Shown here: in pieces, positions 695 through 17,468 of the stretch
How positions within the stretch are numbered: position 1 is the first letter of the stretch
Layout: every line of letters starts with the position of its first letter
Assembly (NCBI GenBank): GCA_963845755.1
Contig: CAWJTV010000029.1
Location: 192,001-256,000, forward strand
Direction of reading: 5' to 3'
Length of the DNA: 64,000 bases
Source of the DNA: an uncultured Planctomycetota bacterium
GTDB lineage: Bacteria > Planctomycetota > Planctomycetia > Isosphaerales > Isosphaeraceae
The notes under the pieces: model-generated
Seen by the model: the letters and a program-made list of their open reading frames with translations, nothing else
The model's database searches: none
Told to the model about the DNA's origin: nothing
Program-made: the position numbers and the translations under genes

Positions 695-940
695 TCAATC
701 CTCCAGGCCCAATTCCTGAAGCGATTGCGCCTTCAGCAGCACACGAGTCATCGCCTTGAGCCGCTCGGGTTCCAGACTCTCGAGGCGCTCCTGGGCAATG
801 GGACTCAATGGGCCGAAGCGTGCCTCGAGGAGCTCCTGGAGCGTCATCCGCAGGCCCTGTTGCAGGCCCTGTTGCAGGCCCTGTTGCAGGCCCTGTTGCA
901 GGCCCTGTTGCACGCCTCTCTCGAATGTCGTCACCGCCAT
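695..940 (-). CDS. Candidate nested in-frame small protein (RpnS-like intragenic antitoxin, 81 aa)
   Basis: AGGAG at 954-950, 9-nt spacer, in-frame ATG at 940 (MAVTTFERG...). Confidence 0.55.
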   Translation of the reverse strand: MAVTTFERGVQQGLQQGLQQGLQQGLQQGLRMTLQELLEARFGPLSPIAQERLESLEPERLKAMTRVLLKAQSLQELGLED

Positions 941-1774: not shown

Positions 1775-2300
1775 TCACTGGCCAGGGGTCCGAGTGGCCT
1801 GGAGCGCTTCGCGTGCGGCCTGGATGGTCTGATCGATATCGTCCTCGGTGTGCGCCGCGGAGACGAAGGCGGCTTCGAACTGGCTGCAAGGCAGGTAGAC
1901 GCCGCGGGCGAGCATCTCCCAGAAGAAGCGGGCGAAGCGCCGGGTGTCGCTCCGTCGCGCGTCGTCGTAGTTGCGCACGGGGCCGTCGTGGAAGAAGAGG
2001 GTCAGCATGCTGCCAACGCGCTGGACGACGTGGGGGATTCCGGCGTCGGAGGCGGCCCGGTCGAGCCCTTCAGCCAGCCGGGCCGAGAGGGCTTCGAGCC
2101 GATCGTAGGGGGAATGGTCGCGGAGCGAGCGCAGCGTGGTCAGTCCGGCGGCCATCGCCAGGGGATTGCCCGAGAGCGTGCCGGCCTGGTAGATCGGCCC
2201 GACCGGTGAGACATGGTCCATGATCGCGGCCGATGCGCCATAGGCCGCCGCGGGCAAGCCATCGCCGACCACCTTACCCAGGACCGACAGGTCGGGCGTG
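1775..2300 (-). pseudogene. hemL: Displaced 3' fragment of hemL (second copy, no 5' part)
   Basis: 1795-2300 aligns ungapped to 15891-16396 with about 12 substitutions; GKVVGDGLP instead of GKVVGGGLP; different last residues (ATRTPGQ vs ASRS). Confidence 0.95.
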
Positions 2301-2341
2301 TCTCCATTTCCGGCTGAAGCCAGACGGTTCCCTGTCGGAAT

Positions 2342-2410
2342 CGGCTCCTGACCACGTTGTCACCCGGCTCTTGACCACGTTGTCGCTCGGCTCCTGACCA
2401 CGTTGTTCTC
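2342..2410. repeat. 3 x 23-bp tandem repeat CGGCTC(C/T)TGACCACGTTGT-N4
   Basis: Units start at 2342, 2365 and 2388; near-palindromic core TGAC-C-ACGT-T-GTC. Confidence 0.9.
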
Positions 2411-2518
2411 TCGGCGGGAAACGGGTGGCCGAGGCCGTCCGAGGGCGCTCTCCATATCCGACAATCCGACATGCGTCCATTCACAACTCACTTCCTTTCG
2501 GTCGCAGATTAACGTAAA

Positions 2519-5500
2519 TTGGCGCACTTGATCCTCCCGCTCGATGGAGTGGAGCCGGTCCTGGAACCGGGTGGGGCGAGCCGATGGAAGGAAGCGCGGC
2601 AACCGGATTACGGCAGCGAGGTCATCGTGGACATCCCCCTCGGCGAAGACTTGAGAAACGTGCAGATTCGCGCCGAGAGCAGTCAAGCGTCGTCGCCGAC
2701 AAGCCCGATCGATTTCTCCTCCGACCCTGAGTTGGTCCGGGTCGTGACCGAGGGCGAGCGGCTGGCGTTTGGCCACCAGTTCAACCCGGCGTTCGCCACG
2801 GAAATCTCGATGATCGACCCGCTGCCCCACCAGCGAATCGCGGTCTACGACCACATGCTGACGCAGCCCCGCCTACGGTTCCTCCTGGGCGACGAGCCGG
2901 GGGCCGGCAAGACCATCATGGCGGGGCTCTACATTCGCGAGATGCTGGCGCGCCGGCTGCTACGCCGAATCCTGATCGTCCCTCCAGCCGGACTGATCGG
3001 CAACTGGGAGCGCGAACTGCGCACCCTGTTCGGTCTGGACTTCGAGATCGTCTCGGGGGCGGATTCCCGTGCCGGCAACCCGTTCACGGGGCCGAAAGGC
3101 GACCAGGTCATCGTCAGTGTCGATACCCTGGCGAGCGAGCGCACTTTCGCCCGGCTCCAGGAATCCGGCGTCGAGCCATATGACCTGGCGATCTTCGACG
3201 AGGCACACAAGCTCGGCGCCGACCGCCAGCCCGACTTCACCATCCGCAAGACCGACCGCTACCAGGTCGCCGAGGTGCTGGCGGGGATCCCGGCCGGCGA
3301 CTCCCGCTGGTCGCTCGACTGGGCCTGCAACCACCTGCTGCTGCTAACGGCCACGCCCCACATGGGCAAGGACTTCCCGTACTTCTGCCTCTGGCGGCTG
3401 CTGGAACCCGAGGTCCTGGCCACTGTGGACGCCTTCAACGCTTATCCGGCCGATGCGCGACGTCGCCATTTCCTCCGCCGGACGAAGGAGGAGATGGTTA
3501 GCTTCGAGGGCAAGCGCATCTATCCAGGACGCGTCAGCGACACGCTCAGCTACGACCTATCCCAGGGGGAGATCAGCGAGCAGGCCCTCTACGACCAGAC
3601 GACCGCGTACATCGAGACCTATTACAACCGCTCTCGCATCCTCAACCGCTCGGCGGCCCGGCTGGCCATGTCCGTCTTCCAGCGCCGGCTCGCCAGCTCG
3701 ACCTACGCCCTGCTGAGGTCCTTCGAGCGCCGCCTGGGAAAGCTCGACGGTCTGATCGTCGCTATCGAGTCGGGCCGGATCACGGCCGGCGAGCTGGCGG
3801 CGATGCAACGGAAGCTGGACGACACCAAGGACGTCTTCGAGGAGGAGACTGGCGACGAGGAGACCCCCAAGGGGGACCAGGAGGAGAACGAGATCGCCGA
3901 GGCCAAGGCGCTGGGGGGCGTCGTGGCCGTCTCCCTCGCGGAGCTGATCGCCGAGCGGGACCAGGTCCGGGCGCTGCTGGAGCTGGCCAAGCAGGTGGAC
4001 GCCAGGGGGGACGAGTCGAAGTTCGACAAGCTCCGCGAGGTCCTGGGCGACCCCGAGACCCGCGGGGAGAAGCTGATCCTCTTCACCGAGCACCGCGACA
4101 CCCTCGACTACCTGGTCCGGCGACTCGAAGGGCTGGGCTTCACCGGGCGGGTGGCCCAGATTCACGGCGGGATGGACTTCCGCGAGCGGGAGCAGCAAAT
4201 CGCCTTCTTCGAGAGAAAACTCCACGACGGCGGCGCCGAGTTCATGGTATGCACCGACGCGGCCGGCGAGGGGCTCAACATGCAGTTCGCCTGGCGGCTG
4301 CTGAACTGGGACCTGCCCTGGAACCCGGCCCGGCTGGAACAGAGGATGGGCCGAATCCACCGCTACAAGCAGGAGCACGACCCGGTCACCATCGTCAACC
4401 TCCTGGCCGGCAAGACCCGCGAGGGGCGAGTGATGAAGACCCTGTTGGACAAGCTCGAACGCATCCGCAAAGAACTGGGCCGGGACAAGGTCTTCGACGT
4501 GATCGGCCGGCTGTTCGAGGGCGTTAGCATCAAGGAGTACATGGAGCGGGCGGTCACGAGCGAGGGGGCCGATGCGGCTTGCCGCGCCCTGGAGGGGACG
4601 CTCACCAAGGAGCAGGTCGAGGCCCTGGAGGCGAAGGAGCGACGGATCTATGGCGACGGTGGCGACGTGAAGGCGTACCTGGCGGCCGAGCGGGCGAAGC
4701 TGGACCGCGAGGGCTGGCGCCGGCTGTTGCCCGGCTACGTTCGCCGGTTCGTCGAGAAGTCGGCCCCGTTGCTGGACCTGGGTATCGATGGCGACCTGGA
4801 CGAGACGTTCGCTCTCAAGCCGCTCCGGCCCGGCGCCCTCGACTTCCTCTGGAACCTTCTGGAGACCTACCCGCCGGCCCGCCGGCAACGCCTGACCGTC
4901 CACAAGCCCAGGGACGCCGCCGAGGCGTTATTCCTCCATCCGGGGGAGCCGGTATTCGACCGGTGGCGGGTCCACGTTTGCGAGCGGTTCGCCGACGCCG
5001 CCCGCCGGGGCGGGGTCTTCGTGGACCCGACGGCGGCGGCAGCGTACCTGTACCACCTGGTGGCCGTGTCGGTGTCGCGGCGGGCAGACCCATCGCACCC
5101 GACGCTGGCGAGGGCCGAGGTCCTGGAACACCGGCTGGTTGGTCTGCGCCAGTCGGAGGATGGGACCGTCGAGCAGTGCCCGGTGGGGCACCTGCTGCTC
5201 TTAAAGGGCGGTCGCGGTGTGCCGGCGGACGTGAGGTCCATCGCGTCGCGTGCGGACGAGTTGGCGGCGATCGCCCAGACCTTCGCTGCGGAGAAGATTG
5301 CCCGGCCTCTGGCCGAGGGACGCCGCCGCGCGCGTCTGGAGGATCTCCCCTCACGGCTGGAGTTCGTCTCGCGGGGTTTCGAGTACCAGGACGCCGAGCT
5401 GGCCCAGGCGCGGGGGAAGCTGCGGGACAAGGCCCTGGCCGGGGACCCGAGGGCCAGGGGCGAGATGACCAAGATCAGGGACCGGCAGAAGGCGCTGTCG

Positions 5501-6019
5501 GCCCGGAGCGAGGCGGCACTGGCGGCACTGAGACGCGAACCGGAGCTAATCGGGGCCGACGAGGTCTCGTTCCTGGCCCATGCCCTGGTGGTCCCGACCG
5601 ACGACCCCGAGGAGCGGAAACGGTACGATGCGGAGATCGAGGCGATCGCGGTGAAGGTCGCCTGGGCGTTCGAGGAAGCGGCAGGCGCCATGGTCAAGGA
5701 CGTCTCCAAGCCGCACCTGGCGCGAGCGGCCGGCCTGGAGGAAAACCCAGGGTTCGACTTGCTCTCCGATCGGCCGGGGCGGTTCCAGCGCGGCATCGAG
5801 GTCAAGGGGCGGGTCGGCGTCGGCGAGGTCGAGCTGACCGAGAACGAATGGGTCAAGGCGTGCAACCAGCGCGCGCGGTACTGGCTGTACGTGGTGTTTG
5901 ATTGCGGGACGTCGCATCCCCGGCTGCTGCGCGTGCAGGATCCGTTTGGTAAACTGATCGCTAAGGCCAAAGGGAGCGTGCGGATCGCTGCGCAGGAGGT
6001 CTTCGACGCCGCGGAATGA
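2519..6019 (+). CDS. SNF2-type SF2 helicase with C-terminal DUF3883 (NOV-C, PD-(D/E)XK) nuclease; start uncertain
   Basis: GDEPGAGKT, DEAH, LLLTATPH, TDAAGEGLNMQ, WNPARLEQRMGRIHR; C-terminal GFDLLS..IEVKG..LTENEW. Confidence 0.92.
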   Translation: MAHLILPLDGVEPVLEPGGASRWKEARQPDYGSEVIVDIPLGEDLRNVQIRAESSQASSPTSPIDFSSDPELVRVVTEGERLAFGHQFNPAFATEISMIDPLPHQRIAVYDHMLTQPRLRFLLGDEPGAGKTIMAGLYIREMLARRLLRRILIVPPAGLIGNWERELRTLFGLDFEIVSGADSRAGNPFTGPKGDQVIVSVDTLASERTFARLQESGVEPYDLAIFDEAHKLGADRQPDFTIRKTDRYQVAEVLAGIPAGDSRWSLDWACNHLLLLTATPHMGKDFPYFCLWRLLEPEVLATVDAFNAYPADARRRHFLRRTKEEMVSFEGKRIYPGRVSDTLSYDLSQGEISEQALYDQTTAYIETYYNRSRILNRSAARLAMSVFQRRLASSTYALLRSFERRLGKLDGLIVAIESGRITAGELAAMQRKLDDTKDVFEEETGDEETPKGDQEENEIAEAKALGGVVAVSLAELIAERDQVRALLELAKQVDARGDESKFDKLREVLGDPETRGEKLILFTEHRDTLDYLVRRLEGLGFTGRVAQIHGGMDFREREQQIAFFERKLHDGGAEFMVCTDAAGEGLNMQFAWRLLNWDLPWNPARLEQRMGRIHRYKQEHDPVTIVNLLAGKTREGRVMKTLLDKLERIRKELGRDKVFDVIGRLFEGVSIKEYMERAVTSEGADAACRALEGTLTKEQVEALEAKERRIYGDGGDVKAYLAAERAKLDREGWRRLLPGYVRRFVEKSAPLLDLGIDGDLDETFALKPLRPGALDFLWNLLETYPPARRQRLTVHKPRDAAEALFLHPGEPVFDRWRVHVCERFADAARRGGVFVDPTAAAAYLYHLVAVSVSRRADPSHPTLARAEVLEHRLVGLRQSEDGTVEQCPVGHLLLLKGGRGVPADVRSIASRADELAAIAQTFAAEKIARPLAEGRRRARLEDLPSRLEFVSRGFEYQDAELAQARGKLRDKALAGDPRARGEMTKIRDRQKALSARSEAALAALRREPELIGADEVSFLAHALVVPTDDPEERKRYDAEIEAIAVKVAWAFEEAAGAMVKDVSKPHLARAAGLEENPGFDLLSDRPGRFQRGIEVKGRVGVGEVELTENEWVKACNQRARYWLYVVFDCGTSHPRLLRVQDPFGKLIAKAKGSVRIAAQEVFDAAE

Positions 6020-6050
6020 GCCATTTCCCCCGCTAATCAGTGGTTGACTT

Positions 6051-6104
6051 ACTCGTTCCCACGCTCCGCGTGGGAATGCCGTCTTCGACGCTCCGCGTCG
6101 TCTT
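6051..6104 (+). repeat. REP/REPIN arm, left (54-bp perfect inverted repeat with 6703-6756)
   Basis: ACTCGTTCCCACGCTCCGCGTGGGAATGCC... contains hairpin TTCCCACGC-TCC-GCGTGGGAA. Confidence 0.95.
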
Positions 6105-6138
6105 TCTTCTTCGACAACGTTCGTCTTCATGAGTCGAG

Positions 6139-6681
6139 ATGCCTGAAATGGGACGCAGTCGCTACAAGTTCGGGGAAGCGGGGTTCCCGCACTTTGTGAC
6201 CTGTACAGTCGTTGGCTGGCTCCCCGTGTTCACAAGGCGCGAAACCGTTCAGATCCTTCTGGATTCCTGGCAGTTTCTCCAGGATCAGAATCGCGTGGTG
6301 CTCCTGGGCTACGTGGTACTCGAGAACCATATCCACTTCATCGCCACGGCCGAGGACCTGTCGACCGACGTTGGCGATTTCAAGTCGTATACGGCACGAC
6401 GGATCATCGACTACCTCAGTGAGCGACACGTGCGGACTCTGCTGGATGGCCTGGCGTATCACAAAGCCCGGCACAAAAGCGACCGCGAGTTTCAACTCTG
6501 GCAGGAAGGAAGCCATCCGAAAATCATCGAGACCGAGGCGATGATGAGCCAGAAGTTGAGCTACATCCACGACAACCCGGTGAAGCGGGGCTACGTGGAC
6601 GATCCGACGCATTGGAGATACTCCAGTGCCCGGAACTATGCGAAGATGGAGTCCTTGGTTTCGGTGACAACCGACTGGTAA
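6139..6681 (+). CDS. REP-associated tyrosine (HUH/Y1) transposase, RAYT
   Basis: HFVT.T, YVVLENHIH (HUH), FKSYTAR, WQEGSH, YIHDNPV..G.V....W.YSS; flanked by REP arms. Confidence 0.93.
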   Translation: MPEMGRSRYKFGEAGFPHFVTCTVVGWLPVFTRRETVQILLDSWQFLQDQNRVVLLGYVVLENHIHFIATAEDLSTDVGDFKSYTARRIIDYLSERHVRTLLDGLAYHKARHKSDREFQLWQEGSHPKIIETEAMMSQKLSYIHDNPVKRGYVDDPTHWRYSSARNYAKMESLVSVTTDW

Positions 6682-6702
6682 CTCGGTGCGAAGCCGGGGC
6701 CG

Positions 6703-6756
6703 AAGACGACGCGGAGCGTCGAAGACGGCATTCCCACGCGGAGCGTGGGAACGAGT
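6703..6756 (-). repeat. REP/REPIN arm, right
   Basis: Exact reverse complement of 6051-6104. Confidence 0.95.
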
Positions 6757-6808
6757 TCACAAGATTGCTGCGCAGGAGGTCTTCGCAACGGCGGAGAGGA
6801 TGTGAACG

Positions 6809-7084
6809 ATGGACGCAGCACAGAACGAAGAGATCGCCGAAATCTTCAACCGGGTCAAGAATTGGTCTCCGCCTCAGCGGATCACCCTGGCCCGGCGCAT
6901 TCTCGAGACGCTGGAAGCGTCCGCCACCGCGGAAGCTGGGAGCCAACCGAAGATTGAGGAGCCGAAGCGGGGCTGGCCCGTCGAGAGGGTGCTGGGGCTG
7001 CTCAAGACCGATCGCGAGCCGCCGGACGACGAGGAATGCCGCCGGATCATCGAGGAGGAACGATGGAAGAAGTACGGCTCTTGA
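6809..7084 (+). CDS. Small antitoxin-like protein (paralog 1, no intact toxin downstream)
   Basis: Similar to 7165-7500 at both ends (W(S)P.Q.I.L.R.IL..LE; TD..PP.DEE..RI.EEER..K). Confidence 0.7.
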   Translation: MDAAQNEEIAEIFNRVKNWSPPQRITLARRILETLEASATAEAGSQPKIEEPKRGWPVERVLGLLKTDREPPDDEECRRIIEEERWKKYGS

Positions 7085-7164
7085 GCGGCTCCTGACCGAG
7101 GGGGCCGATCGAGATGGACGGATCCCTGTCCAGGAATTCTCTGCGGCCCGGAGGGAGATTCACG

Positions 7165-7500
7165 ATGAGCCTTGCCGAAACTCATGAGATTGGAGAAGTC
7201 TGGGACCGCATCAACGTGTGGTCGCCGACTCAGAAAATCGCCCTGATGCGCAAGATTCTGGACTCGCTGGAAGACGGGAGTCCGACACCGGTCCCGCTAG
7301 CGGAGTCGGAATGGGGTCAGTCCGCGGCTCGATCACCCGGGCTGCCCGAGCGGGATCGAACCCAAGCCACCGGGAGCAATCAACCGCCGAAGAAAACGCT
7401 GGCCGACTTCCTCGGCGCGTTCCAGACGGACGGTCCTCCGCCGACCGACGAAGAGGTCCAGCGCATCCTTGAGGAGGAACGGATGAGGAAATCCGGATGA
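7165..7500 (+). CDS. Small antitoxin-like protein (paralog 2) coupled to PIN gene
   Basis: GGAGGGAG RBS before ATG 7165; ATGA overlap with the PIN gene. Confidence 0.72.
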   Translation: MSLAETHEIGEVWDRINVWSPTQKIALMRKILDSLEDGSPTPVPLAESEWGQSAARSPGLPERDRTQATGSNQPPKKTLADFLGAFQTDGPPPTDEEVQRILEEERMRKSG

Positions 7501-7925
7501 AACGACTCCTGCTCGATACGAACATCCTGCTCGACGTGCTCTTGCGTCGCCTGCCCTGGCAGGCCGAGGCCGAGGCGATACTCGAAGCCTTCCGGAGCGG
7601 ACAACTGGTTGTTGTCGTCTCACCGTTGACGATCGCCAACGCGTTCTACGTGGGCCGCCGGAGCGTGGGGACGGTCGCCACCAGAGTTTGGGTTCGCGAG
7701 TGCCTCGATGCGTTCGAGATCGTCCCGCTGGATCTGGCCATCCTCAAGGCTGCCGACCAGTTGCCCGGCTCGGATTTCGAGGATGGGATTCAGATCGCAT
7801 CGGCCGTCAATTCGGGCGTTGATGCCATCGTGACGCGTGATCCAAAGGGTTTCGCCGGTTCCTCGGTCCCTGTCCTCTCTCCCGCCGAATTGCTGGCCCT
7901 CCTGCCGAAGGACGACCATGCCTGA
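7497..7925 (+). CDS. PIN-domain (VapC-like) ribonuclease toxin
   Basis: LLDTNILLD, DFEDGIQIASA, IVTRD.KGF. Confidence 0.9.
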   Translation: MKRLLLDTNILLDVLLRRLPWQAEAEAILEAFRSGQLVVVVSPLTIANAFYVGRRSVGTVATRVWVRECLDAFEIVPLDLAILKAADQLPGSDFEDGIQIASAVNSGVDAIVTRDPKGFAGSSVPVLSPAELLALLPKDDHA

Positions 7926-10900
7926 AACCGACAAGCCCCGTCTGATCGAAGTGGCCTTCCCGCTCAAGCAGGCGTCGCTGGACTCGGTCCATGAGAAGAA
8001 CGTCCGGCATGGGCACATCTCGACGCTGCACATCTGGCCCGCCCGGCGACCGCTGGCGGCGTGCCGGGCGGCGCTGATCGCCACGCTGCTGCCTGATCCG
8101 GGGACGCCGCAGGCGAGGAAGGAACTGCTGGAGAAGATCGGCGGGAAGGTGGTCACCGAGGTCCAGAAGAAGAAGGTCGGCGGCAAGACGGTCGAGGTTG
8201 TCAAGGAGCGGACCGAGGGGGGCGTCCTGCGTTGGGGTAACGAGAACAGCCCGGACATGGACTGGTTCCGCGAGGAGATCAAGAAAGCGTACGGCGGGCG
8301 TGCGCCGAGGGTGCTCGACCCGTTCGCGGGCGGCGGTGCGATTCCCCTGGAGGCCATGCGGCTGGGCTGTGAGGCAACGGCCATCGACATCAATCCGGTC
8401 GCCTGGTTCATCCTCAAGTGCACCCTGGAGTATCCCCAGAAACTCGCCGGTCAGGTCCGACCGCTACCGAAATTCGCGCTCGAGTCCGCCGAGTTCATGG
8501 AGGCGTTCCTCAAGGGCTCGGGGAAGCTGACCAAGGCCCAGGTCGCAAAGGAATTGCCGAAGTACCAGCGCGGGCTGTTCCCGCCGCCCGATGTGGACCT
8601 GTCCTGGCACGTCCGGGCCTGGGGCTGGTGGGTGCTCCAGCGGCGCGGAAAGACCTGGAGCGGTTCTACCCCACCATCGACGGCAAGCTCACGGTCGCCT
8701 ACCTCTGGGCGCGGACGGTGACGTGCAAGAACTGCCGGGCAACCATTCCCCTGCTCAAGACTCGCTGGCTGTGCAAGAAGGAGAACAAACGGGTCGTCCT
8801 GACGATGGAGCCGAACGCAGACAAGACCGGCGTGGTCTTCGGCGTTCAAGCCGACGTGCCGGTTGTGGGTGGCAACGGGGCGCAAGGGGGGAGTACGACA
8901 AGCAGGTTGGACAGGGCACGATGTCGCGGTCGGGCGCCACCTGTCCGAGTTGCGGCGTCCCGAGCATGACGATGGAGGACATCCGCCTACAAGGTCGAGC
9001 CGGTCGGCTTGGTAGCGTCATGACCGCCGTCGTTGTGGACGGGGCGAGTGGCAAGGATTATCGGCCGCCAGTCCAGGATGACAGCCGGGCGGTTGACCAG
9101 GCTCAACCCGAGCTGGATCGAGTGTATAGGGACATCCCTTTCGGCCTGCCGGATGAGCCGATTGCCGGGAAAGACGCTCTCGGCATCCGCGTGCCCCTGT
9201 ATGGTCTGGATCGTTGGCGAAAACTGTTTACTCCCCGCCAACTATTCTCCATGGGAACATTCGTAAAGCACACGCGAGCAGCAAGAGAGGTCATTGAAAC
9301 CCTGGGACATCCACCGGAGTGGACGGAGGCGATAATCGCCTACCTCGCGCTGGCCCTCGACAGGCTTGCGGATCGTTGCAGCTCACTCTGCCAACCCGAT
9401 CCCAGTCCGACCCAGAGCGGCGTGATGCACACTTTCTCGAAGTTCGCGTTCCCATGAACTGGGATTTTATCGAGGGTGTACCTATTTCGGGGGCGAGCGG
9501 AGGCTTTTCGGGAGCATTGGAGTGGGTAGCGAAAGTCATCGAACAGAACAGCTTATCTGTTGCATGTCCGGCACCTGATATCGAGCATTCCCATGCTACA
9601 AGAAGTCTGGACAAGGCTTTTGACCTTATCGCAACCGATCCGCCTTACTATGACGCTATACCATATTCTGATCTCATGGATTTCTTCTATATATGGCTCC
9701 GGCGGACCCTGAACGGCCTGAACCCGGAGATTGGCTCCGCCTTCAGCGAAGCCCTGTCCCCGAAATGGAATCATGATGCAAATAACGGTGAGTTGATTGA
9801 TGATCCAAGTCGTTTCGGAGGAGACGCAACGAGGTCCAAGAGAGCCTACGAAGAGGGGATGTGCCTGGTCTTCGAGAACTGCTCTCGCTCGCTCGAAGCC
9901 GGTGGTCGTCTCGTTATCGTCTTCGCCCACAAGCAGCCCGACGCCTGGGAGACGCTGGTCTCAGCGATCATCCGGGCCGGTTTCGTTGTCGATGGAAGCT
10001 GGCCGATCCAGACCGAAAGGTTCGCGCGCACGCGAGCCCTCTCCTCTGCCGCTCTCTCCTCATCCGTCTGGCTCGTCTGCAAGAAGCGCCCCGAAGCAGC
10101 CCGCCCCGGCTGGGACAATCGCGTCCTCGACGAGATGCGACAGAACATACACGCCCGTCTCCGCGACTATTGGGACGCGGGCATTCGGGGTCCCGACTTC
10201 GTGTGGGCGGCGACCGGTCCGGCGATGGAGGCGTACAGCAAGCACCCGGTCGTGAAGAAGGCCAACGAACCGGGCAAGCTCATGGAGGTCGCCGAGTTCC
10301 TCCCGCCGTCCGCCGCCTGGTGGTCGATTTCGTCGTCGGCCGGGTCTTGACCGGCGAGCAGGGTGACGAGTCGGATGCGAGCGGGCTCGACGACGTCACG
10401 ACCTACTACATCCTGCACCGCCACGACTTCGGTATGGAGGACGCACCGATCGGGGCCTGCATCCTCTACGCCGTCTCGTGCAACCTGTCGGACAACGACC
10501 TGGCCAGCCGCCACGAGATCCTCCTCCGCACTGGCGGGTTGTCCGCCCCCGAGGAAGATGGCGAGGACGTTGACGCCGAGGAGGGGGCCGAATCCGACAC
10601 CGACGAGGAGCCCGAGGAGGGGACCGGCAGCACGGTCAAGCTGCGGCCCTGGCACCAGCGGAAGCGGAAGACGATGGGCTATGATGCGGAGGGCCGGCCC
10701 GCGCCGTTGATCGACCAGGTCCATCGCCTGATGCAGCTCTGGAAGGCGGGCGACGTGGTCAAGGTGGACGACTACCTCGACGCCCGAGCGCTCCGCAAGA
10801 ACACCCTGTTCCTCCACCTGCTCCAGGCCCTGATCGAACTGGCCGGCGAAGGGACCGAGGAGCGGGTCATCCTGGAGAACATCAGCAACCACCTGGCGGC

Positions 10901-10970
10901 CCGGGGCGTGGCGCCGGTGCGCACGGTTGCCCTACCCGGTTTCGGCGATGGCGACGAGAATGATGGGTGA
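7918..10970 (+). CDS. DUF1156 domain N6-adenine DNA methyltransferase (about 4 apparent frameshifts near 8643, 8885, 9448, 10302)
   Basis: RLIEVAFPL, LHIWPARRPLAACRA, VLDPFAGGGAIP, CxxC motifs, TDPPYYDAIPYSDL; pieces in successive frames join into one protein. Confidence 0.88.
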
Positions 10971-11009
10971 GAATCCACGAGCCGTTGATATCTCGCCGGA
11001 GGCTGTCAC

Positions 11010-11060
11010 ATGACCGAATCCCTGCACCTCAAGCGATTCAAGAACTTCCAGGACGCGTAG
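11010..11060 (+). pseudogene. 16-codon stub resembling the N-terminus of an ABC/AAA (OLD/SMC-like) ATPase
   Basis: GGAGG RBS then MTESLHLKRFKNFQDA-stop; no Walker A follows. Confidence 0.4.
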
Positions 11061-11268
11061 TTTCTGCAAAGTTGGGGCTACTCCAACCAAGGCGCGTGTT
11101 GCTTGCGTTCCGTCATGGATGGACGATCCCGGAACAGGGGCAATGGCCGGAGAGCGGCCAGGGCTCAGGGTCGAAACGCCAAGGCGATGAAGTCGCGACA
11201 AGAGTGCGCGAAACAGATGATAAGCTTGAAGCATTCCCTCTGGTCACTGGCCGTCGGGCAACATCATC

Positions 11269-11898
11269 ATGGCTTTTCTCGACTACCATCGTACTGTGGT
11301 CGGCTACCATGGCACGTCATCGAAGATCGCCGATGCCCTGGTGGAAGGGACGCCGTTCAGGGAAAGCGCCGACGTCGATGAATGGTTGGGCACCGGCGTC
11401 TATTTTTGGGAATATGCGCCCAAGCAAGCATGGCGGTGGGCGAAGCGATTCAACCAGATCAGCGACCCAGCCGTGGTCGGCGCGATGATCCGGCTGGGCA
11501 ATTGCTTCGACCTGCTGGATTCGATAAATATCGAGGCGCTGCAAAAGGCCAAAGATGGTATGGTGAGGCTGATGAGGCGGGAAGGCGTGAAGGTTCCCGA
11601 GAACAAGCGCATATACAAAAATCTGGACTGCGCCGTCTTCAACTACTTCTATCAAACGGTAGAGGATGAGGGCGGGCCGAAAATCGACAGTGCGAGGGCG
11701 GCCTATGTCCCGACGGAAAGCAGAAAAAGAATCTGGCGTGCGAGCTGGATCTACAAAGACACCCACATCCAAGTCTGCGTCCGCAACCAAAGCAACATCC
11801 TCGCCGTCTGGCACGCGCACCCCGACGGGCGCTACGGCAAAGTCAAAGAGGCGTCCGAAAGCGGTGGCGGCGTCGGCGGCGCCGAAGGTGGGCAGTGA
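11269..11898 (+). CDS. Hypothetical protein with ADP-ribosyltransferase-like motifs
   Basis: VVGYHGT, WLGTGVYFWE, LDCAVF, HIQVCVRN; visibly lower GC than flanks. Confidence 0.7.
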   Translation: MAFLDYHRTVVGYHGTSSKIADALVEGTPFRESADVDEWLGTGVYFWEYAPKQAWRWAKRFNQISDPAVVGAMIRLGNCFDLLDSINIEALQKAKDGMVRLMRREGVKVPENKRIYKNLDCAVFNYFYQTVEDEGGPKIDSARAAYVPTESRKRIWRASWIYKDTHIQVCVRNQSNILAVWHAHPDGRYGKVKEASESGGGVGGAEGGQ

Positions 11899-11902
11899 TT
11901 AC

Positions 11903-12019
11903 ATGCGCATTGCCAAGAGGATCGGCAAGATGTCGGGACCGGCGTTTCTGTCGTCGCTTCGGCGGGCGGGGATCATCACGGCGGAAGGTGCCTTGCAGGC
12001 GAAATACAAGAAAAAGTAG
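11903..12019 (+). CDS. Small basic partner protein (start uncertain, may extend to about 11834)
   Basis: MRIAKRIGKMSGPAFLSSLRRAGIITAEGALQAKYKKK immediately after the ART-like gene. Confidence 0.45.
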   Translation: MRIAKRIGKMSGPAFLSSLRRAGIITAEGALQAKYKKK

Positions 12020-12056
12020 GAGACTCCTCGCTGATCGCCACCGCCCGACGCTCCCC

Positions 12057-12085
12057 CTCGTTCCCACGCGGGGCGTCGGAACGAG
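12057..12085. repeat. Collapsed/degenerate REP of the 6051 family
   Basis: CTCGTTCCCACGCGGGGCGTCGGAACGAG matches the outer ends of both REP arms. Confidence 0.75.
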
Positions 12086-12138
12086 CTTAAAGCCGTTATG
12101 CGGCGCCGGTCAGCCGCAGCACCGGTTCGCCGGCTACT

Positions 12139-12405
12139 TTGTTGCGACTGCAATCCCCGGCCGAAGGACGATGCTTGGTCACGCTCGATCTGGATTTCTC
12201 GAACCCGTTCATCTTCCCGCCGGACCAGTACGCCGGAATCGCTGTCCTGCGTCTGCCCCGCAGGGTCTCACCGAATGATCTGTATGCCACGGTGACGGCT
12301 TTGGTCGCCGCTCTGGCCCGCGATTCCATTTTGGGAAAACTCTGGATCGTCGAACGACATCGCATCCGCGTGTATTTGCCGGATGAGGGGACCCCCGGAC
12401 TTTGA
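12139..12405 (+). pseudogene. 5'-truncated DUF5615 (PIN-like/Mut7-C) gene
   Basis: EGRCLVTLDLDF..P....GIAVLR and G.LWIVE..RIR present; the N-terminal xxDEN motif is missing. Confidence 0.7.
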
Positions 12406-12484
12406 CGCCAAAGACGCTCCGCCGGGAAATCCTGGAGACCCACTGAGTCATCGAGTCCCGCCCCAGTTGGAAGAAAGCCCCACC

Positions 12485-15400
12485 ATGACCAAGCTCCCCT
12501 GGACGCCCTGGCATCAGGTGGTCGAGCTCCGCCCCGACGTCCGCTCGGGCGAGCTGTCGCTGTCGCAGTTCGCCGCCGATCTGTACGACGTGATGATGGA
12601 CAAGGGAACGCCGGTCTATCGCACCCCCGCCGAGTTCTTCGCGCTGACCTTCCCGACGTACAACCTCCGCGAACTGGCCAAGGACGTGGTCCACCGGCTC
12701 GCCGGGAAGAACGACAAGACCATCCGACAGCTCGAACTGACCTACGGCGGCGGCAAGACGCACACCCTGATCACGCTGCTGCACCTGGTCCGCGACCCCA
12801 GGGGGCTGCCCGACCTGCCTGCCGTCCACGAGTTCCTCCAGCACATCGGGATGACGCCCCCCGCGACCCGGGTCGCCGCCCTGGCGTTCGACAAGCTCGA
12901 CGCCGAGAAGGGGATGGAGGTCAAGGGGCCGGCCGGCGAGAAGCGGTGGTTGCGGAATCCCTGGAGCGTCCTAGCCTTCCAGATTGCCGGCGCCGACGGA
13001 CTGCGGCTGCTCCACGCGGACGGCGACGACGCCGAGCGGGAGAGCGCCCCGGCAGAGAACCTGCTGGTCGATCTGCTGGCGATCCCCGGCAACAATGATC
13101 TCGCGACGTTGATCCTGATCGACGAGGTCCTGATGTACGCCCGCGAGAAGGTCGGGCTCGACCCGGCCTGGCGCAGCCGCCTGGTGAACTTCTTCCAGTA
13201 TCTCACCCAGGCCGCCACGAAGATCAACCGTTGCGCCGTCGTGGCGTCCCTGCTCGCGAGCGAGCCCAGCAAGAGCGACACGCTGGGCAAGGAGATCGCT
13301 CTGGAACTGTTTACCATCTTCCGTCGCGAGCGGGAGGAGGGCATCCAGCCCGTCCTGAAGGACGACGTTGCGGAGGTCCTACGCCGCCGCTTCTTCCAGC
13401 CCGATTCGATCCGAGACCGCGAGTCGTTTCGCTCGCACGCCGTCGCCGCGCTCAAGGGGGTGACCGACCACGACGACGCGACCGCCAAGGACGGCAAGAC
13501 CGCCGAGGAGCGGTTCCTCAAGAGCTACCCGTTCCACCCCGATCTGACGGAGGTCCTCTACACCAAGTGGACCCAGCTCGAGGGGTTCCAGCGGACCCGG
13601 GGCATCCTGCGGACGTTCGCCCTCGCATTGCGGGATGCCGTCGGCTGGGACCAGTCCCCACTGATCGGGGCGAACGTGTTCCTGAACGAGCCGGGCAAGG
13701 TGGAAGTGTCGGCGGCGGCGCGGGAACTGGCGAACGTCGCCGGGAGCGAGGAGTACGAGGGCAAGAAGCAGGACTGGACCGGCATCCTGGAGGGCGAACT
13801 GAGCAAGGCCCGCGACATCCAGGGCGAGACCTCTGGTCTGAGCCACCGCGAGGTTGAACAGGCGGTCTTCGCCACGTTCCTGCACTCGCAGCCGGTCGGC
13901 CAGAAGGCGGCACTTCGCGAGCTGACGGTCCTCCTCGGCCCGACCCGGCCCGACAAGATCGGGCTCGTCAAGGCCCTGCTTCGTTGGGTGGACACGTCGT
14001 ACTTCCTGGACGACCAATTCACCAACGAAGCGGGGGTCCAGGCCGACGGCCGGCGGGACGTCCCGAAGTCGTGGCGGTTGGGGTCGAAGCCAAACCTGAT
14101 CCAGATGCACCAGGATGCCTGCACGCGGGTCTCCGGCGAACTGGTCGAGGCGAAGCTGATCAAGACCATCGAGACGCTCAAGTCGTTGACGGCAGGCACG
14201 GCGGGCGACGGTTATAAGGTGAAGGTCCACAACCTGCCCGAGAAGCCTAACGATGTCACCGACGACGGCGACTTCCACTACGCCGTGCTGGAGCCGAGGG
14301 CTGCGTCCACGTCCGGAAACCCCAGCGCCGAGTCACGGCGATATCTCGACGAGACGACCGGGCCGGACCGCCCCCGCGTCTATCGCAACGCGGTGGTCCT
14401 GGGCGTGCCGTCGCGGGACGGGCTGGAGGTCGCCCGCGGCCGCATCCGCGACTACCTGGGCTGGGAGGAGGTCCAGTCGCAGTTGAATGACCAGGAGGTG
14501 GACCTGATCCGCCGGGAAACACTCGCGGCGAACCTGGAAGCGGCGAAGAAGAAGGTCCCCGAGTCCGTCCAGCAGGCGTACAACATCGTGGTCACCGTGT
14601 CCGAGGGCAATGACGTCCAGGCGTTCAAGTTGACGCTGGACACGGCGCGCCCGCTGTTCGACCAGATCAAGTCTGACCCTCGCTCTCGAATTCAGGAGAC
14701 GGCGGTCAGCTACGAGGCGCTGCTCCCCGAGGGTCCCTACGACCTGTGGCGGTCAGGGGAGACGGCCCGCCGCGTCAAGGACCTGGTCGGGGCCTTCGCG
14801 CAGTTCCCGCACCTGCCGAAGATGCTCAACCGGCAGGCCATCCTCGACACGCTCGTCCAGGGCTGCGAGGAGGGCCAGTTCGTCTTACGCCTGACGCGCC
14901 CCGACCGCTCGACCCGGACGATCTGGCGGCAGCAGCCGGACGAGGCCGACCTGAAGAACACGTCGATGGAGGTCGTGCTCCCCGAGTCGGCCGAGTTATC
15001 CGAGATCGAGCCGGCGCTGCTGGCCCCCAACGTGCTGCCCGATCTCTGGAAGAGTTCAGACATCACTCTCGCCGACATTCGCGGCTACTTCTCGGGCGGC
15101 AAGGTGATCAAGATCGCCCGTCAGGGCTACGACGAGCCAGTCACGATCCCCAAGGCTCCGCGATCCATCGTGGATGAGACGATCACCAGGGCGGTGAAGG
15201 AGGGCAACCTCTGGCTCACGGACGGGCCGACGAGCCTATACGCCGAGGATGTCCCCGCAGGACTCCTATCCGACGAGGCGCGGTTGCAGGCACCGCCATC
15301 GCCGATCCCCGCGAAGGACGTGCTGCCCGAGAGCCTGCCGGATGCCTGGGCTGGCGACGTCGCTACGGCACATGCGATCTCCGAGGCGCTCTCCGCCAAG

Positions 15401-15814
15401 GCGGGCAGGGCGCTGCCGTGGGCGACGGTCCGCACCGCCATCGACGGGGCATTCCACGGCCGGCTCCTGGAGCGGACCGTGGACTCCGGATCCTGGCCAT
15501 GCGAATTCGACGGGACGCGCCAGGTGAAGGTGCGGGTCCCCGAGTTGAAGCCGATCATCGACATCAACAAGCCCAAGGACGAACAGCCGAAACCCCCTGC
15601 CGGTGTTCTGGTGGCCTCGGCGTACCTCAAGCCTGGGGAGGTCCAGGACCTCGCGGAAGTGATCGGCGACGTGGGCGCGGCGGCCGTGGGGTACGACCTG
15701 AAGATCATATTGAGGATTGAGGTGGGAGCGGTCGGGAAGCGACCCCCGGATGACATCATCGCCAAGATCGACTCCAAGCTTGGCGAGGTGTCGAAAGATT
15801 TCAAACTTACCTGA
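12485..15814 (+). CDS. DUF499 family AAA+ ATPase
   Basis: PWHQVV.LRPDV..G.....FAADL, Walker A TYGGGKTH, Walker B LILIDEV, SYPFHP, FQRTRGILR. Confidence 0.9.
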   Translation: MTKLPWTPWHQVVELRPDVRSGELSLSQFAADLYDVMMDKGTPVYRTPAEFFALTFPTYNLRELAKDVVHRLAGKNDKTIRQLELTYGGGKTHTLITLLHLVRDPRGLPDLPAVHEFLQHIGMTPPATRVAALAFDKLDAEKGMEVKGPAGEKRWLRNPWSVLAFQIAGADGLRLLHADGDDAERESAPAENLLVDLLAIPGNNDLATLILIDEVLMYAREKVGLDPAWRSRLVNFFQYLTQAATKINRCAVVASLLASEPSKSDTLGKEIALELFTIFRREREEGIQPVLKDDVAEVLRRRFFQPDSIRDRESFRSHAVAALKGVTDHDDATAKDGKTAEERFLKSYPFHPDLTEVLYTKWTQLEGFQRTRGILRTFALALRDAVGWDQSPLIGANVFLNEPGKVEVSAAARELANVAGSEEYEGKKQDWTGILEGELSKARDIQGETSGLSHREVEQAVFATFLHSQPVGQKAALRELTVLLGPTRPDKIGLVKALLRWVDTSYFLDDQFTNEAGVQADGRRDVPKSWRLGSKPNLIQMHQDACTRVSGELVEAKLIKTIETLKSLTAGTAGDGYKVKVHNLPEKPNDVTDDGDFHYAVLEPRAASTSGNPSAESRRYLDETTGPDRPRVYRNAVVLGVPSRDGLEVARGRIRDYLGWEEVQSQLNDQEVDLIRRETLAANLEAAKKKVPESVQQAYNIVVTVSEGNDVQAFKLTLDTARPLFDQIKSDPRSRIQETAVSYEALLPEGPYDLWRSGETARRVKDLVGAFAQFPHLPKMLNRQAILDTLVQGCEEGQFVLRLTRPDRSTRTIWRQQPDEADLKNTSMEVVLPESAELSEIEPALLAPNVLPDLWKSSDITLADIRGYFSGGKVIKIARQGYDEPVTIPKAPRSIVDETITRAVKEGNLWLTDGPTSLYAEDVPAGLLSDEARLQAPPSPIPAKDVLPESLPDAWAGDVATAHAISEALSAKAGRALPWATVRTAIDGAFHGRLLERTVDSGSWPCEFDGTRQVKVRVPELKPIIDINKPKDEQPKPPAGVLVASAYLKPGEVQDLAEVIGDVGAAAVGYDLKIILRIEVGAVGKRPPDDIIAKIDSKLGEVSKDFKLT

Positions 15815-15865
15815 GTATAGCAGGGGGCTCAAGGCTGATCACATGGGAGTGAAACGGAGACGCAT

Positions 15866-15883
15866 CTAGATTTGCAAATCTAG
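15866..15883. promoter_or_regulatory. Perfect 18-bp palindrome CTAGATTTGCAAATCTAG overlapping the hemL stop
   Basis: Self-complementary, between convergent genes; function unknown. Confidence 0.45.
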
Positions 15884-17205
15884 CTCCGGCTGGCCTGGAG
15901 CGCTCCGCGAGCGGCCTGGATGGTCAGATCGATATCGTCCTCGGTGTGCGCCGCGGAGACGAAGGCGGCTTCGAACTGGCTGCACGGCAGGTAGACGCCG
16001 CGGGCGAGCATCTCCCAGAAGAAGCGGGCGAAGAGCCGGGTGTCGCTCCGTCTCGCGTCGTCGTAGTTGCGCACGGGGCCGTCGTGGAAGAAGAGGGTCA
16101 GCATGCTGCCGACGCGCTGGACGACGTGGGGGATTCCGGCGTCGGAGGCGGCCCGGTCGAGCCCTTCAGCCAGCCGGGCCGAGAGGGCTTCGAGCCGATC
16201 GTAGGGGGGCTGGTCGCGAAGCGAGCGCAGCGTGGTCAGTCCGGCGGCCATCGCCAGGGGATTGCCCGAGAGCGTGCCGGCCTGGTAGATCGGCCCGACC
16301 GGTGAGACATGGTCCATGATCGCGGCCGAGGCGCCATAGGCCGCCGCGGGCAAGCCACCGCCGACCACCTTACCCAGGACCGACAGGTCGGGCGTGATCC
16401 CATACAGGCCCTGGGCGCCGCCATAAGCCACGCGGAAGCCGGTCATCACCTCGTCGAAGATGAGCAAGGCTCCGTGTTTCCGGGTCAAGTCTCGGATCGC
16501 AGCGAGATAACCCACTTCCGGCGGGACCAGCCCCATGTTGCCGGCGATCGGCTCGAGCAAGACCGCGGCGACCTGGCCGGGGAATCGCTCCAGGGCCTCA
16601 GCCACCGCAGCCGCGTCGTTGAAGGGGCAGAGGATCGTGTCCTGCGTGGTGCCCTCGGTCACCCCGGGACTGTTGGGTGTCCCGAGCGTCGTGGCGGCCG
16701 AGCCGGCCTGGACCAGCAAGGCGTCGATGTGGCCGTGGTAGTGTCCGCTCATCTTGATGATCTTCGATCGGCCCGTGACGCCCCGTGCCACCCGGACGGC
16801 GGACATCGCCGCCTCGGTCCCCGACGAGACAAAACGCACCTTCTCGATCGACGGGACGGCTTCGGCCACCATCTCCGCGATCTCGACTTCGCGCAGGGTC
16901 GGCGCGCCGAAACTCGACCCCAACTCCAGCGCCTCGGCCACGGCCGCGCGGACCTCGGGATGGACATGCCCCAGGATCATAGGGCCCCACGATCCGATAT
17001 AATCAATATATTTATGATCATCAATGTCGTAAAGGTAGGCCCCTTCGGCGCGCGCGATGAATGGCGGCTCGCCGCCGACGGCGCCGAACGCCCGAGCCGG
17101 GCTGTTCACGCCGCCGGGGATCACGCGATTGGCCCGCGCGAAGGCCACGCGGCTCTGGGTGAGGTGGAAATCGGGTCGGGAGAGCGCGGGCGTCTCGGGC
17201 ATCAT
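15880..17205 (-). CDS. hemL: Glutamate-1-semialdehyde 2,1-aminomutase
   Basis: IPGGVNSPARAF, SSGTEA, FDEVMTGFR, GKVVGGGLP, YQAGTLSGNP. Confidence 0.97.
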   Translation of the reverse strand: MMPETPALSRPDFHLTQSRVAFARANRVIPGGVNSPARAFGAVGGEPPFIARAEGAYLYDIDDHKYIDYIGSWGPMILGHVHPEVRAAVAEALELGSSFGAPTLREVEIAEMVAEAVPSIEKVRFVSSGTEAAMSAVRVARGVTGRSKIIKMSGHYHGHIDALLVQAGSAATTLGTPNSPGVTEGTTQDTILCPFNDAAAVAEALERFPGQVAAVLLEPIAGNMGLVPPEVGYLAAIRDLTRKHGALLIFDEVMTGFRVAYGGAQGLYGITPDLSVLGKVVGGGLPAAAYGASAAIMDHVSPVGPIYQAGTLSGNPLAMAAGLTTLRSLRDQPPYDRLEALSARLAEGLDRAASDAGIPHVVQRVGSMLTLFFHDGPVRNYDDARRSDTRLFARFFWEMLARGVYLPCSQFEAAFVSAAHTEDDIDLTIQAARGALQASRS

Positions 17206-17302: not shown

Positions 17303-17383
17303 CGTAAGTCCTTGCCGGGAAAATGCATTGCGACGAATCAGCCAAAGAAATCGCCGTAAATCCTTCGGTCTCAACAAGTTCCG
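17303..17383. repeat. Two 29-30 bp imperfect palindromes CGTAA(G/A)TCCTT...TT(G/C)CG
   Basis: 17303-17332 and 17355-17383; related left arms at 31168 and 45171. Confidence 0.55.
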
Positions 17384-17468
17384 GCCAAAGGTATGGCTTC
17401 GCGGATCGCCTCTCACCTGTTCTTCCACCTGTTCTCAGGGAGTCGCGTGGAGCCTGCCGTCGTGTCCA

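What the first reader, a model, noticed from the sequence alone, without database searches (positions are those of the whole stretch)
1795..16396. Integrase-free 13.6-kb defence island anchored in hemL by a 506-bp duplication of the gene's 3' end
Seen: 1795-2300 and 15891-16396 align without gaps (about 12 substitutions by manual count, roughly 97.6%). The homology starts a few codons before the PLP-lysine motif GKVVGGG. hemL stays intact, while the orphan copy has G-to-D in that motif. No tyrosine or serine integrase or DDE transposase lies between the repeats. Known: elements that integrate into coding genes carry a replacement 3' end, but they normally encode an integrase and att duplications are usually much shorter. 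Inference: the island arrived as a circle carrying a hemL tail from a close relative and integrated by single-crossover homologous recombination, or by an integrase acting in trans. It could excise the same way, which would make hemL a swappable docking site for defence cargo.
Basis: partly seen in the sequence, partly recalled or inferred. Interest (0 to 1): 0.8.

Follow-up and report, generated by a model that had tools for sequence, protein, structure and literature searches.

The report
Defence genes between duplicated gene tails
A known three-gene anti-phage system sits behind a haem-synthesis gene between two copies of that gene's end, a real scar of DNA gained by ordinary recombination that recurs behind about ten other genes of the same soil bacterium, so it is not a special docking site.

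Summary
The repeat is real: 506 bp, ungapped, 12 substitutions; hemL is intact and the orphan tail carries G283D. Short-read contigs bridge the orphan-side junction. The cargo is a known Hma system (HmaA/B/C) with embedded genes, including a RAYT; no integrase, resolvase or rve transposase lies inside. New: the orphan-side junction is a 26-bp stub of an IS3-family left end fused to hemL at a microhomology. A same-genus genome has the empty hemL-Rpn arrangement with the orphan-type C-terminus, so the intact gene carries the incoming end. hemL is not a special dock: 1 of 111 relatives shows a second piece. But 11 of 38 two-copy repeats in this genome have the same intact-gene/cargo/orphan-tail layout against 1 head-type, and relatives repeat it at the same genes with other breakpoints. 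Best reading: integrase-free capture of a relative's DNA by end-joining plus single crossover, a product shown in E. coli (PMC3240628). The scan reported this layout before in six other genomes.

The parts
695..1657 (-). Rpn/YhgA-like gene (DUF4351 tail); resident downstream neighbour of hemL, outside the insert
   Evidence: Pfam DUF4351 below cut-off; Atlas neighbours DUF4351 54-62%, Transposase_31 12%; abuts the hemL end in G001
1775..2300 (-). Orphan hemL 3' tail (codons 270-end), resident-type C-terminus ATRTPGQ*, carries G283D; 1795-2300 is the repeat
   Evidence: same length and T-x-T-x-G-x-stop pattern as the G001 end; 8 of the 12 variant sites covered by short-read contigs with 0 differences
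2290..2300 (-). Microhomology between hemL and the inner continuation of the IS3 left end
   Evidence: 9 of 11 bases match the C12 copy, the best of 1315 positions in hemL; 8 of 11 for C13 (5 of 1315), 6 of 11 for C42 (78 of 1315)
2301..2326 (-). 26-bp stub of an IS3-family left inverted repeat, tip facing the island, body missing
   Evidence: 2-3 mismatches to IS ends on C42, C12, C13; at 2 mismatches or fewer 4 sites for the real 24-mer and 0 for each of 10 shuffles; alignment; C12 element is IS3 family above cut-off
2344..2410 (.). Three tandem 23-bp repeats upstream of hmaA, unexplained
   Evidence: unique as an array in the genome, 0 of 120 relatives, 1 unrelated hit in genome contigs, 0 in viral contigs, 0 in plasmids
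2519..6019 (+). hmaA: SNF2 helicase with C-terminal NOV_C/DUF3883 nuclease domain
   Evidence: PADLOC HmaA E 7.5e-148; Pfam
6051..6756 (+). RAYT gene (6139-6681) between two 54-bp inverted REP copies, embedded in Hma
   Evidence: NF047646 above cut-off; REPs identical and dispersed in dozens of copies in the genome; homology to G001 hmaA stops at 6050
6809..7925 (+). Two small antitoxin-like ORFs and a PIN-domain gene
   Evidence: PIN_3 E 3.6e-15 for 7497-7925; the two small ORFs have no family hit, antitoxin-like is inference
7902..10970 (+). hmaB: DUF1156 DNA methylase, in several frames in this assembly (probably long-read errors)
   Evidence: PADLOC HmaB hits over profile 9-796 in four pieces; single-base gaps of the same kind break hemB; one short-read contig shows an extra base at one break
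11269..11898 (+). Embedded PD-T4-9A-like gene (weak ADP-ribosyltransferase-like signal)
   Evidence: PADLOC PD-T4-9_A E 1.1e-7; Pfam PARP E 0.041, below cut-off
12139..12405 (+). DUF5615 (PIN-like) fragment
12488..15814 (+). hmaC: DUF499 AAA+ ATPase, ends 66 bp from the hemL stop, convergent
   Evidence: PADLOC HmaC E 1.5e-73; Pfam DUF499
15866..15883 (.). 18-bp perfect palindrome overlapping the hemL stop codon, single copy in the genome
   Evidence: not scored as a T-tailed terminator
15880..17205 (-). Intact hemL with incoming 3' end ASRS*; 15891-16396 is the second repeat copy
   Evidence: TIGR00713 above cut-off; stop at the same codon as 21 of 28 family tails read

Best explanation
An integrase-free, additive gene capture. 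SHOWN: the resident arrangement is hemL followed by the Rpn-like gene; the genome now reads hemL(5' part + incoming end) - Hma system - IS3 left-end stub - old hemL tail - Rpn-like gene. INFERRED: a close relative carried Hma directly behind its own hemL, with an IS3 copy in front of hmaA. A linear piece of that DNA (one end inside hemL, the other just inside the IS3) entered the cell, its two ends were joined at a short imperfect homology, and the circle was inserted by a RecA single crossover within the shared hemL tail. That keeps the essential gene whole, duplicates the tail and displaces the resident end downstream, where it is silent and has picked up G283D. The cassette is not self-mobile; it can be lost again by RecA crossover between the repeats, and crossovers beyond the first 38 bp would leave a hemL without G283D. 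The same process has left about ten similar scars in this genome.
For: Repeat and polarity. Empty site in G001: contig C14 ends and C31 begins within the last codons of hemL, abutting with a 1-base overlap, giving an orphan-type C-terminus followed by the Rpn-like gene. The intact end is a natural hemL end: 21 of 28 family tails stop at the same codon, so the donor was a hemL allele. Two-allele signal: 6 of 12 differences are synonymous (26.6% of sites; p 0.07) and 5 of 6 amino-acid differences fall in variable columns (67 of 168; p 0.04); the orphan's S333 and R391 are the second commonest residues in 40 relatives. IS3 stub plus microhomology at the joint. In E. coli conjugation with one-sided homology, 56 of 60 Lac- clones carried a duplication of the gene end, 109-950 bp in the 14 sequenced, ascribed to recircularisation and single crossover (PMC3240628, passages). 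RecA and ComEC present. Independent cases have different breakpoints and cargo: DAO-family gene 381 bp (G000) against 456 bp (G001), DUF1501 gene 224 against 424 bp, metF 660 against 196 bp in G072. The DAO-family locus is 96-97% identical between G000 and G001 against 84% upstream, so these species do exchange DNA.
Against: Neither a donor-type locus (hemL next to Hma without orphan) nor a circle nor an empty site of this strain was found. In the first 461 bp, 7 differences are orphan-derived and 2 intact-derived, which also fits a copy of one resident allele followed by decay. The microhomology is strong for one IS copy but ordinary (78 of 1315) for the copy whose repeat is closest, C42. No Ku was found in G000 or G001 (88% and 87% complete), so the end-joining enzyme is unnamed. 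A linear homology-facilitated event or a later deletion gives the same sequence. The G001 empty site is split over two contigs.
Confidence: 0.45

Rival explanations
1. Homology-facilitated illegitimate recombination or replicative template switching from linear DNA: crossover with the donor in or near the hemL end, and return to the resident hemL 506 bp upstream at the IS3 microhomology, so that most of the repeat is a copy of the resident allele. No circle is needed.
For: One-sided homology plus a 3-10 bp microhomology is the HFIR signature (PMC3240628, passages) and is invoked for displaced 3' ends at T6SS/Rhs loci (PMC5361080, passages). Differences are denser in the last 45 bp (3 of 45 against 9 of 461, p 0.08) and 7:2 orphan:intact upstream of that.
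Against: HFIR usually deletes resident DNA of similar size, and gave 4 of 60 clones in E. coli against 56 duplications by the circle route. Amino-acid differences avoid conserved columns more than decay predicts (p 0.04).
Confidence: 0.2
2. The present junction is secondary: a longer duplication (for example all of hemL or more) flanked the cargo, an IS3 inserted, and a later microhomology-mediated deletion removed the IS body and the 5' part of the spare hemL copy. The 506-bp length then says nothing about the entry event.
For: Only an IS stub is left, with its TG tip already changed to CG; a similar 33-bp stub exists on C22 with no duplicated gene behind it; the metF orphan shows scattered short matches upstream of its edge, as if eroded, and an ISL3-like element lies at the DUF1501 orphan edge.
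Against: Needs three steps within about 2% divergence; recent cases in relatives (97-98.5% identical) are equally short (196-456 bp).
Confidence: 0.2
3. A site-specific integrative element whose integrase acts in trans or has been lost (as e14 in icd, or the H47 island), with the repeat as attL/attR.
For: Polarity always favours 3' ends (11:1 and 18:1), as for elements that restore their target gene; 43 tyrosine-recombinase matches exist elsewhere in the genome; integrase fragments lie beside the C33 epimerase case; the H47 island excises and integrates without its own recombinase and without RecA (PMC3191183, abstract); the 23-bp triple repeat could be arm sites (inference).
Against: No fixed breakpoint: 0 of 111 relatives share it and analogous loci vary. 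The junction is an IS end. Related Hma systems sit at other loci.
Confidence: 0.1
4. Assembly chimera of two strains in a long-read metagenome assembly.
For: The assembly has frameshift errors in core genes; no listed contig bridges 15890/15891 or spans the whole island (32 pieces shown, 548 not shown).
Against: Two short-read contigs (172 and 190 nt, 0 differences, at least 75 nt on each side) join the orphan to the island; a truncated tail fused to an IS stub with G283D cannot be a second strain's working hemL; island-interior pieces match with 0 differences in the same runs. Those runs come from one study, possibly the campaign of the assembly.
Confidence: 0.05

Closest known systems
Single-crossover (Campbell-type) integration of re-circularised incoming DNA in E. 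coli (Amarir-Bouhram et al., PMC3240628; passages seen)
   Same: One-sided homology with a gene end, product is a 109-950 bp duplication of that end around foreign DNA, RecA-dependent, no integrase.
   Different: Laboratory plasmid substrate; here a natural 13.6-kb defence cassette, with an IS3 stub at the joint; the circle was not observed.
C-terminal displacement and orphan 3' arrays at Rhs/CDI/T6SS loci (Kirchberger et al., PMC5361080; passages seen)
   Same: New module inserted behind a conserved anchor, old 3' end pushed downstream; serial stacking (seen here at the DAO-family gene).
   Different: There the displaced part is a toxin/immunity module under diversifying selection; here it is the tail of housekeeping or metabolic genes and the cargo is unrelated to the gene.
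Hma defence system (Payne et al. 2021, PMC8565338; Payne et al. 2024, 10.1101/2024.01.29.577857; Liu et al. 2024, PMC11232893; passages seen)
   Same: hmaA-hmaB-hmaC in order, HmaA with NOV_C nuclease, extra genes embedded (62.7% of 1,485 Hma systems have them).
   Different: hmaB is frameshifted in this assembly; embedded set (RAYT, PIN gene, PD-T4-9A-like) not matched to a named HEC system; activity untested.
Prophage e14 in E. coli icd with the icdC C-terminal pseudogene (PMC13626634; passages seen; the length of about 216 bp is recalled)
   Same: Intact gene with replacement end, orphan C-terminal fragment at the far side, excision makes a chimeric gene.
   Different: e14 encodes its own integrase and has a fixed crossover (recalled); here none in cis and breakpoints vary.
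H47 genomic island of E. coli (PMC3191183; abstract seen)
   Same: About 13 kb, long imperfect direct repeats, no recombinase of its own.
   Different: H47 recombines without RecA and its att sites are widespread in E. coli; here the repeat is a coding gene tail and no second hemL case with this breakpoint was found.
HGT hotspots lacking mobile elements (Oliveira et al., PMC5635113; passages seen)
   Same: Gene gain next to core genes without integrases, linked to homologous recombination in the flanking gene.
   Different: Their model is double crossover (replacement); this case is additive and leaves a duplication.

Membership tests
Hma system | HmaA SNF2 helicase with C-terminal nuclease domain | tested here: met
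   PADLOC HmaA E 7.5e-148, far above DrmD/BrxH; NOV_C above cut-off
Hma system | HmaB DUF1156 methylase | tested here: met
   Four frame pieces all hit HmaB best; integrity uncertain, breaks resemble those in hemB
Hma system | HmaC DUF499 ATPase, order A-B-C on one strand | tested here: met
   PADLOC HmaC E 1.5e-73; coordinates; same order in G001 and G012
Hma system | Anti-phage activity | not testable with these tools
   Shown for a Halomonas HmaA in PMC11232893, not for this copy
Integrase-mobilised genomic island (attL/attR) | Tyrosine or serine recombinase in the element | tested here: not met
   No PF00589 or PF00239 match between the repeats
Integrase-mobilised genomic island (attL/attR) | Target gene restored by a replacement 3' end, displaced fragment at the far end | tested here: met
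Integrase-mobilised genomic island (attL/attR) | Fixed crossover site reused by independent elements | tested here: not met
   0 of 111 relatives share the hemL breakpoint; breakpoints differ at three analogous genes
Integrase-mobilised genomic island (attL/attR) | Excised circle | tested here: inconclusive
   Only low-depth short-read contigs available; none informative
IS3-family element | Terminal inverted repeat of about 26 bp | tested here: met
   2-3 mismatches to three IS left ends; tip reads CG instead of TG
IS3-family element | orfA/orfB transposase and right end | tested here: not met
   Absent at this site; no rve match in the island; it is a stub only
Homology-facilitated illegitimate recombination product | Microhomology of 3-10 bp at the non-homologous joint | tested here: met
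   6 exact, 9 of 11 bases against the C12 copy; weaker against C42
Homology-facilitated illegitimate recombination product | Deletion of resident DNA at the joint | tested here: not met
   Resident tail and Rpn-like gene are retained; a duplication instead
Single-crossover insertion-duplication | Direct duplication of a few hundred bases of the homologous gene end around the insert | tested here: met
   506 bp, within the 109-950 bp of PMC3240628
Single-crossover insertion-duplication | RecA dependence and circular intermediate | not testable with these tools
   recA present; dependence untested
RAYT/REP module | RAYT gene flanked by inverted REPs | tested here: met
   REPs bracket only 706 bp, not the island ends

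The most novel reading that the evidence does not exclude
Very large soil planctomycete genomes grow by a recurrent, polar, integrase-free route: cargo from relatives is added behind the 3' ends of ordinary genes, each round pushing the old gene tail downstream (11:1 and 18:1 tail over head in this genome; three stacked tails at one gene shared in part with a sister species), with IS or REP ends often supplying the free end. Gene tails would then act as generic, reversible landing pads for defence and other cargo.
Probability: 0.3. Interest if true: 0.65.

Novelty: new member of a known kind. Interest (0 to 1): 0.38.

Why it matters
Most gene-transfer hotspots lack integrases (PMC5635113), and how cargo is added there rather than swapped is poorly documented in nature. 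This locus preserves both joints of such an event, including a readable microhomology, and the genome offers about ten more cases with a strong 3' bias. If the bias holds in other genomes, orphan gene tails give a simple marker to find, order and roughly date integrase-free acquisitions, which att-based island finders miss. The cargo itself (Hma) and the hemL site are ordinary.

Tried and rejected
hemL as a general dock: family-wide DNA search gave one 76-80 bp decayed piece in G060 and one gene split over two contigs in G094 (5 candidates scored per genome, many fragmented assemblies). A class-wide protein search (301 genomes) could not separate orphan tails from paralogous aminotransferases, and 266 matches were not listed: inconclusive. 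Close strains: a degenerate hemL pattern found 0 metagenome stretches; the protein scan returned only relatives at 53-80% identity, with flanks of at most 10 kb, shorter than the island; two of the 80 loci had a second tblastn piece that I did not examine. The genus holds only one other genome. The 23-bp repeats as integrase arm sites, iterons or transposon ends: no second array found. RAYT as the island's mover: its REPs flank only itself. Ku-type end joining: not found. IS or repeat ends at all orphan junctions: several multi-copy hits, but 18 of 60 random 115-mers also had them, so no enrichment is claimed. The hypergeometric values printed used a threshold that only 2 of 6 sites met and were discarded; one search replaced them. 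No identity step along hemB-hemL against G001 that would mark a donor tract.
Full report
1. Observation. The two stretches align over 506 bases without gaps and with 12 substitutions. hemL is on the minus strand, so in gene direction the order is intact hemL (17205-15880), 13.6 kb of cargo, orphan tail (2300-1775), Rpn-like gene (1657-695). The window lies on a 460-kb contig of a 14.27-Mb, 49-contig assembly with no other hemL copy. Frameshifts in hemB and rne show that the assembly has single-base errors. Laying four public runs, a 172-nt contig of X1 (2216-2387) and a 190-nt contig of X2 (2186-2375) cross the orphan/island junction with 0 differences, and contigs with 0 differences cover 8 of the 12 variant sites in orphan form, including G283D. 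Both runs are from one study that may be the source campaign; none of the 32 pieces shown (548 not shown) crosses the other junction. The structure is therefore very probably real.

2. Cargo. PADLOC assigns 2519-6019 to HmaA, the pieces at 7902-10970 to HmaB and 12488-15814 to HmaC. Embedded are a RAYT between 54-bp inverted REPs of a family dispersed through the genome, a PIN gene, a PD-T4-9A-like gene and a DUF5615 fragment. Embedding is normal for Hma: 931 of 1,485 systems (10.1101/2024.01.29.577857, passages). Genome-wide family searches place no tyrosine integrase, serine resolvase or rve transposase between the repeats. Close HmaC homologues (50% identity or more) occur in 7 of 120 relatives, none on the contig that carries hemL, and 1 of 30 HmaC loci, the window's own, contains hemL.

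3. Which tail is resident. In G001, the only other genome of the genus, contig C31 begins and contig C14 ends within the last codons of hemL, abutting with a one-base overlap; the end reads ATQTKGL* and runs on into the same Rpn-like gene. That is the orphan's pattern (ATRTPGQ*). The intact gene ends ASRS*, with its stop at the codon used by 21 of 28 family tails. So the orphan is the displaced resident end, and the intact gene carries an end from another hemL allele that had Hma 66 bp behind it.

4. The orphan-side joint. Bases 2301-2326 match the left ends of IS copies on C12, C13 and C42 with 2-3 mismatches; at 2 mismatches or fewer the real 24-mer has 4 sites in the genome and each of 10 shuffles has 0. 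The C12 element is IS3 family above cut-off. The tip faces hmaA and the IS body is replaced by hemL. The IS continuation matches hemL at exactly this point in 9 of 11 bases for C12 (best of 1315 positions), 8 of 11 for C13 (5 of 1315) and 6 of 11 for C42 (78 of 1315). This is a microhomology joint, not a transposase joint, which would lie at the tip (established IS3 mechanism, recalled).

5. Divergence. Six differences are synonymous and six are not. Against outgroups, 7 in the first 461 bp are orphan-derived and 2 intact-derived; in the last 45 bp 2 are intact-derived and 1 is ambiguous. Only G283D hits an invariant residue; 5 of 6 changes are in variable columns (p 0.04), and the synonymous excess is borderline (p 0.07). 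This leans towards two alleles about 2% apart plus one decay mutation, but does not exclude a copy of one allele.

6. Is hemL special? No. Of 120 family genomes 111 match the tail; G060 has a second 76-80 bp piece 3.5 kb downstream with kinase cargo, and G094 is a gene split over two contigs. None of 80 metagenome hemL loci has a direct second copy, with limited flank. In contrast, a self-comparison of G000 found 88 two-copy direct repeats 1-80 kb apart. Of the 38 that are 150-1500 bp long and at least 85% identical, 11 have the layout intact gene, cargo, orphan tail and 1 has the mirror layout with an orphan head; of 83 at looser thresholds, 18 and 1. These rules were set after looking, use a crude codon score, and only six cases were read in detail, so the p values (0.006, 8e-5) are indicative. 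Cases include metF, a DAO-family oxidoreductase (sarcosine oxidase beta-like, name recalled), an epimerase and a DUF1501 gene. Relatives repeat the layout at the same genes with other breakpoints and cargo: G001 at the DAO-family gene (456 bp, 97%) and the DUF1501 gene (424 bp, 92%), G072 at metF (196 bp, 98.5%, 13.3 kb cargo; this repeat also covers the start of queG). At the DAO-family gene G000 holds three stacked pieces, the older layer shared with G001 at 96-97% identity against 84% upstream. For metF 1 of 113 matching relatives has a tail copy, about the same rate as for hemL, which fits a background process.

7. Mechanism. Variable breakpoints argue against an att site. The product is the one obtained in E. 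coli when incoming DNA has homology at one end only: 56 of 60 clones had a duplication of the gene end, 109-950 bp in the 14 sequenced, ascribed to trimming, re-circularisation and a RecA single crossover (PMC3240628, passages). I take this as most likely (0.45). Linear HFIR or template switching (0.2) and later trimming of a longer duplication through an IS3 (0.2) give the same sequence. A recombinase in trans (0.1) is not excluded, since the genome has 43 tyrosine-recombinase matches and the H47 island moves without its own enzyme (PMC3191183, abstract). Perfect runs of 110 and 97 bp should allow RecA excision; only crossovers in the first 38 bp would bring G283D into hemL. recA and comEC are present, Ku was not found.

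8. Known and new. The cargo is a member of the Hma family. The architecture works like C-terminal displacement at Rhs/T6SS loci (PMC5361080, passages) and looks like e14/icdC (PMC13626634, passages) but fails the integrase and fixed-site tests. Searches listed no paper on a genome-wide excess of orphan gene tails; the library lacks most subscription papers and I read passages or abstracts only, no supplements. The scan itself has noted the layout in six other genomes (unchecked notes), one of them with about ten cases per genome. What this locus adds is the IS3 stub with a readable microhomology, the empty site in a sister species, the tail-over-head bias and the serial stack at another gene.

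9. Verdict. Observation confirmed, interpretation partly supported. A real recombination scar around a known defence system; modest interest by itself (0.38), higher if the polar, genome-wide route is confirmed.

Noticed in passing
window 2344-2410: Three tandem 23-bp repeats with a pseudo-palindromic core between the IS3 stub and hmaA; not found as an array elsewhere. Could be repressor operators or a remnant of another element.
   Followed up: partly
window 15866-15883: 18-bp perfect palindrome overlapping the hemL stop between convergent hemL and hmaC; single copy in the genome.
   Followed up: partly
window 6505-6756: The 3' part of the RAYT plus its REP matches about ten REP-flanked elements of roughly 250-300 bp elsewhere in the genome at about 80%: possible non-autonomous RAYT derivatives.
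   Followed up: no
L110 (G000:C1:278100-284450) and L241 (G001:C12): Serial stack of tails of a DAO-family gene: three pieces in G000, two in G001, the region 96-97% identical between the two species; G001 also duplicates the next small gene (572 bp, 94%).
   Followed up: partly
L111 (G000:C44:94725-104175) and L244 (G072:C430): metF tail duplications around 8-kb and 13.3-kb cargo, both upstream of queG, in two genomes with different breakpoints.
   Followed up: partly
L113 (G000:C36:432711-438666) and L242 (G001:C2): DUF1501 gene tail duplicated in both species (224 and 424 bp) with different toxin-antitoxin-like or defence-like cargo.
   Followed up: partly
L112 (G000:C33:307976-324630): 890-bp epimerase tail repeat around 14.9 kb, with tyrosine-integrase fragments behind both copies; the one case that may be a decayed integrative element.
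   Followed up: partly
G001:C14 end and G001:C31 start (L050, L062): The sister genome's assembly breaks exactly within the last codons of hemL, which may reflect strain variation at this site.
   Followed up: no
window 17328-18474 and 18665-21963: hemB and rne are split by single-base gaps, as is hmaB: long-read errors are likely throughout.
   Followed up: partly
window 242-564: About 320-bp non-coding element with four further copies at 92% in the genome, MITE-like.
   Followed up: no
window 53102-53195/53525-53618 and 39326-39450/62672-62797: Two other direct repeats in the window (94 bp at 89%, 127 bp at 81%).
   Followed up: no
G000:C22:175738-175770: A second isolated IS3 left-end stub of 33 bp, cut at about the same inner point, without a duplicated gene behind it.
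   Followed up: partly
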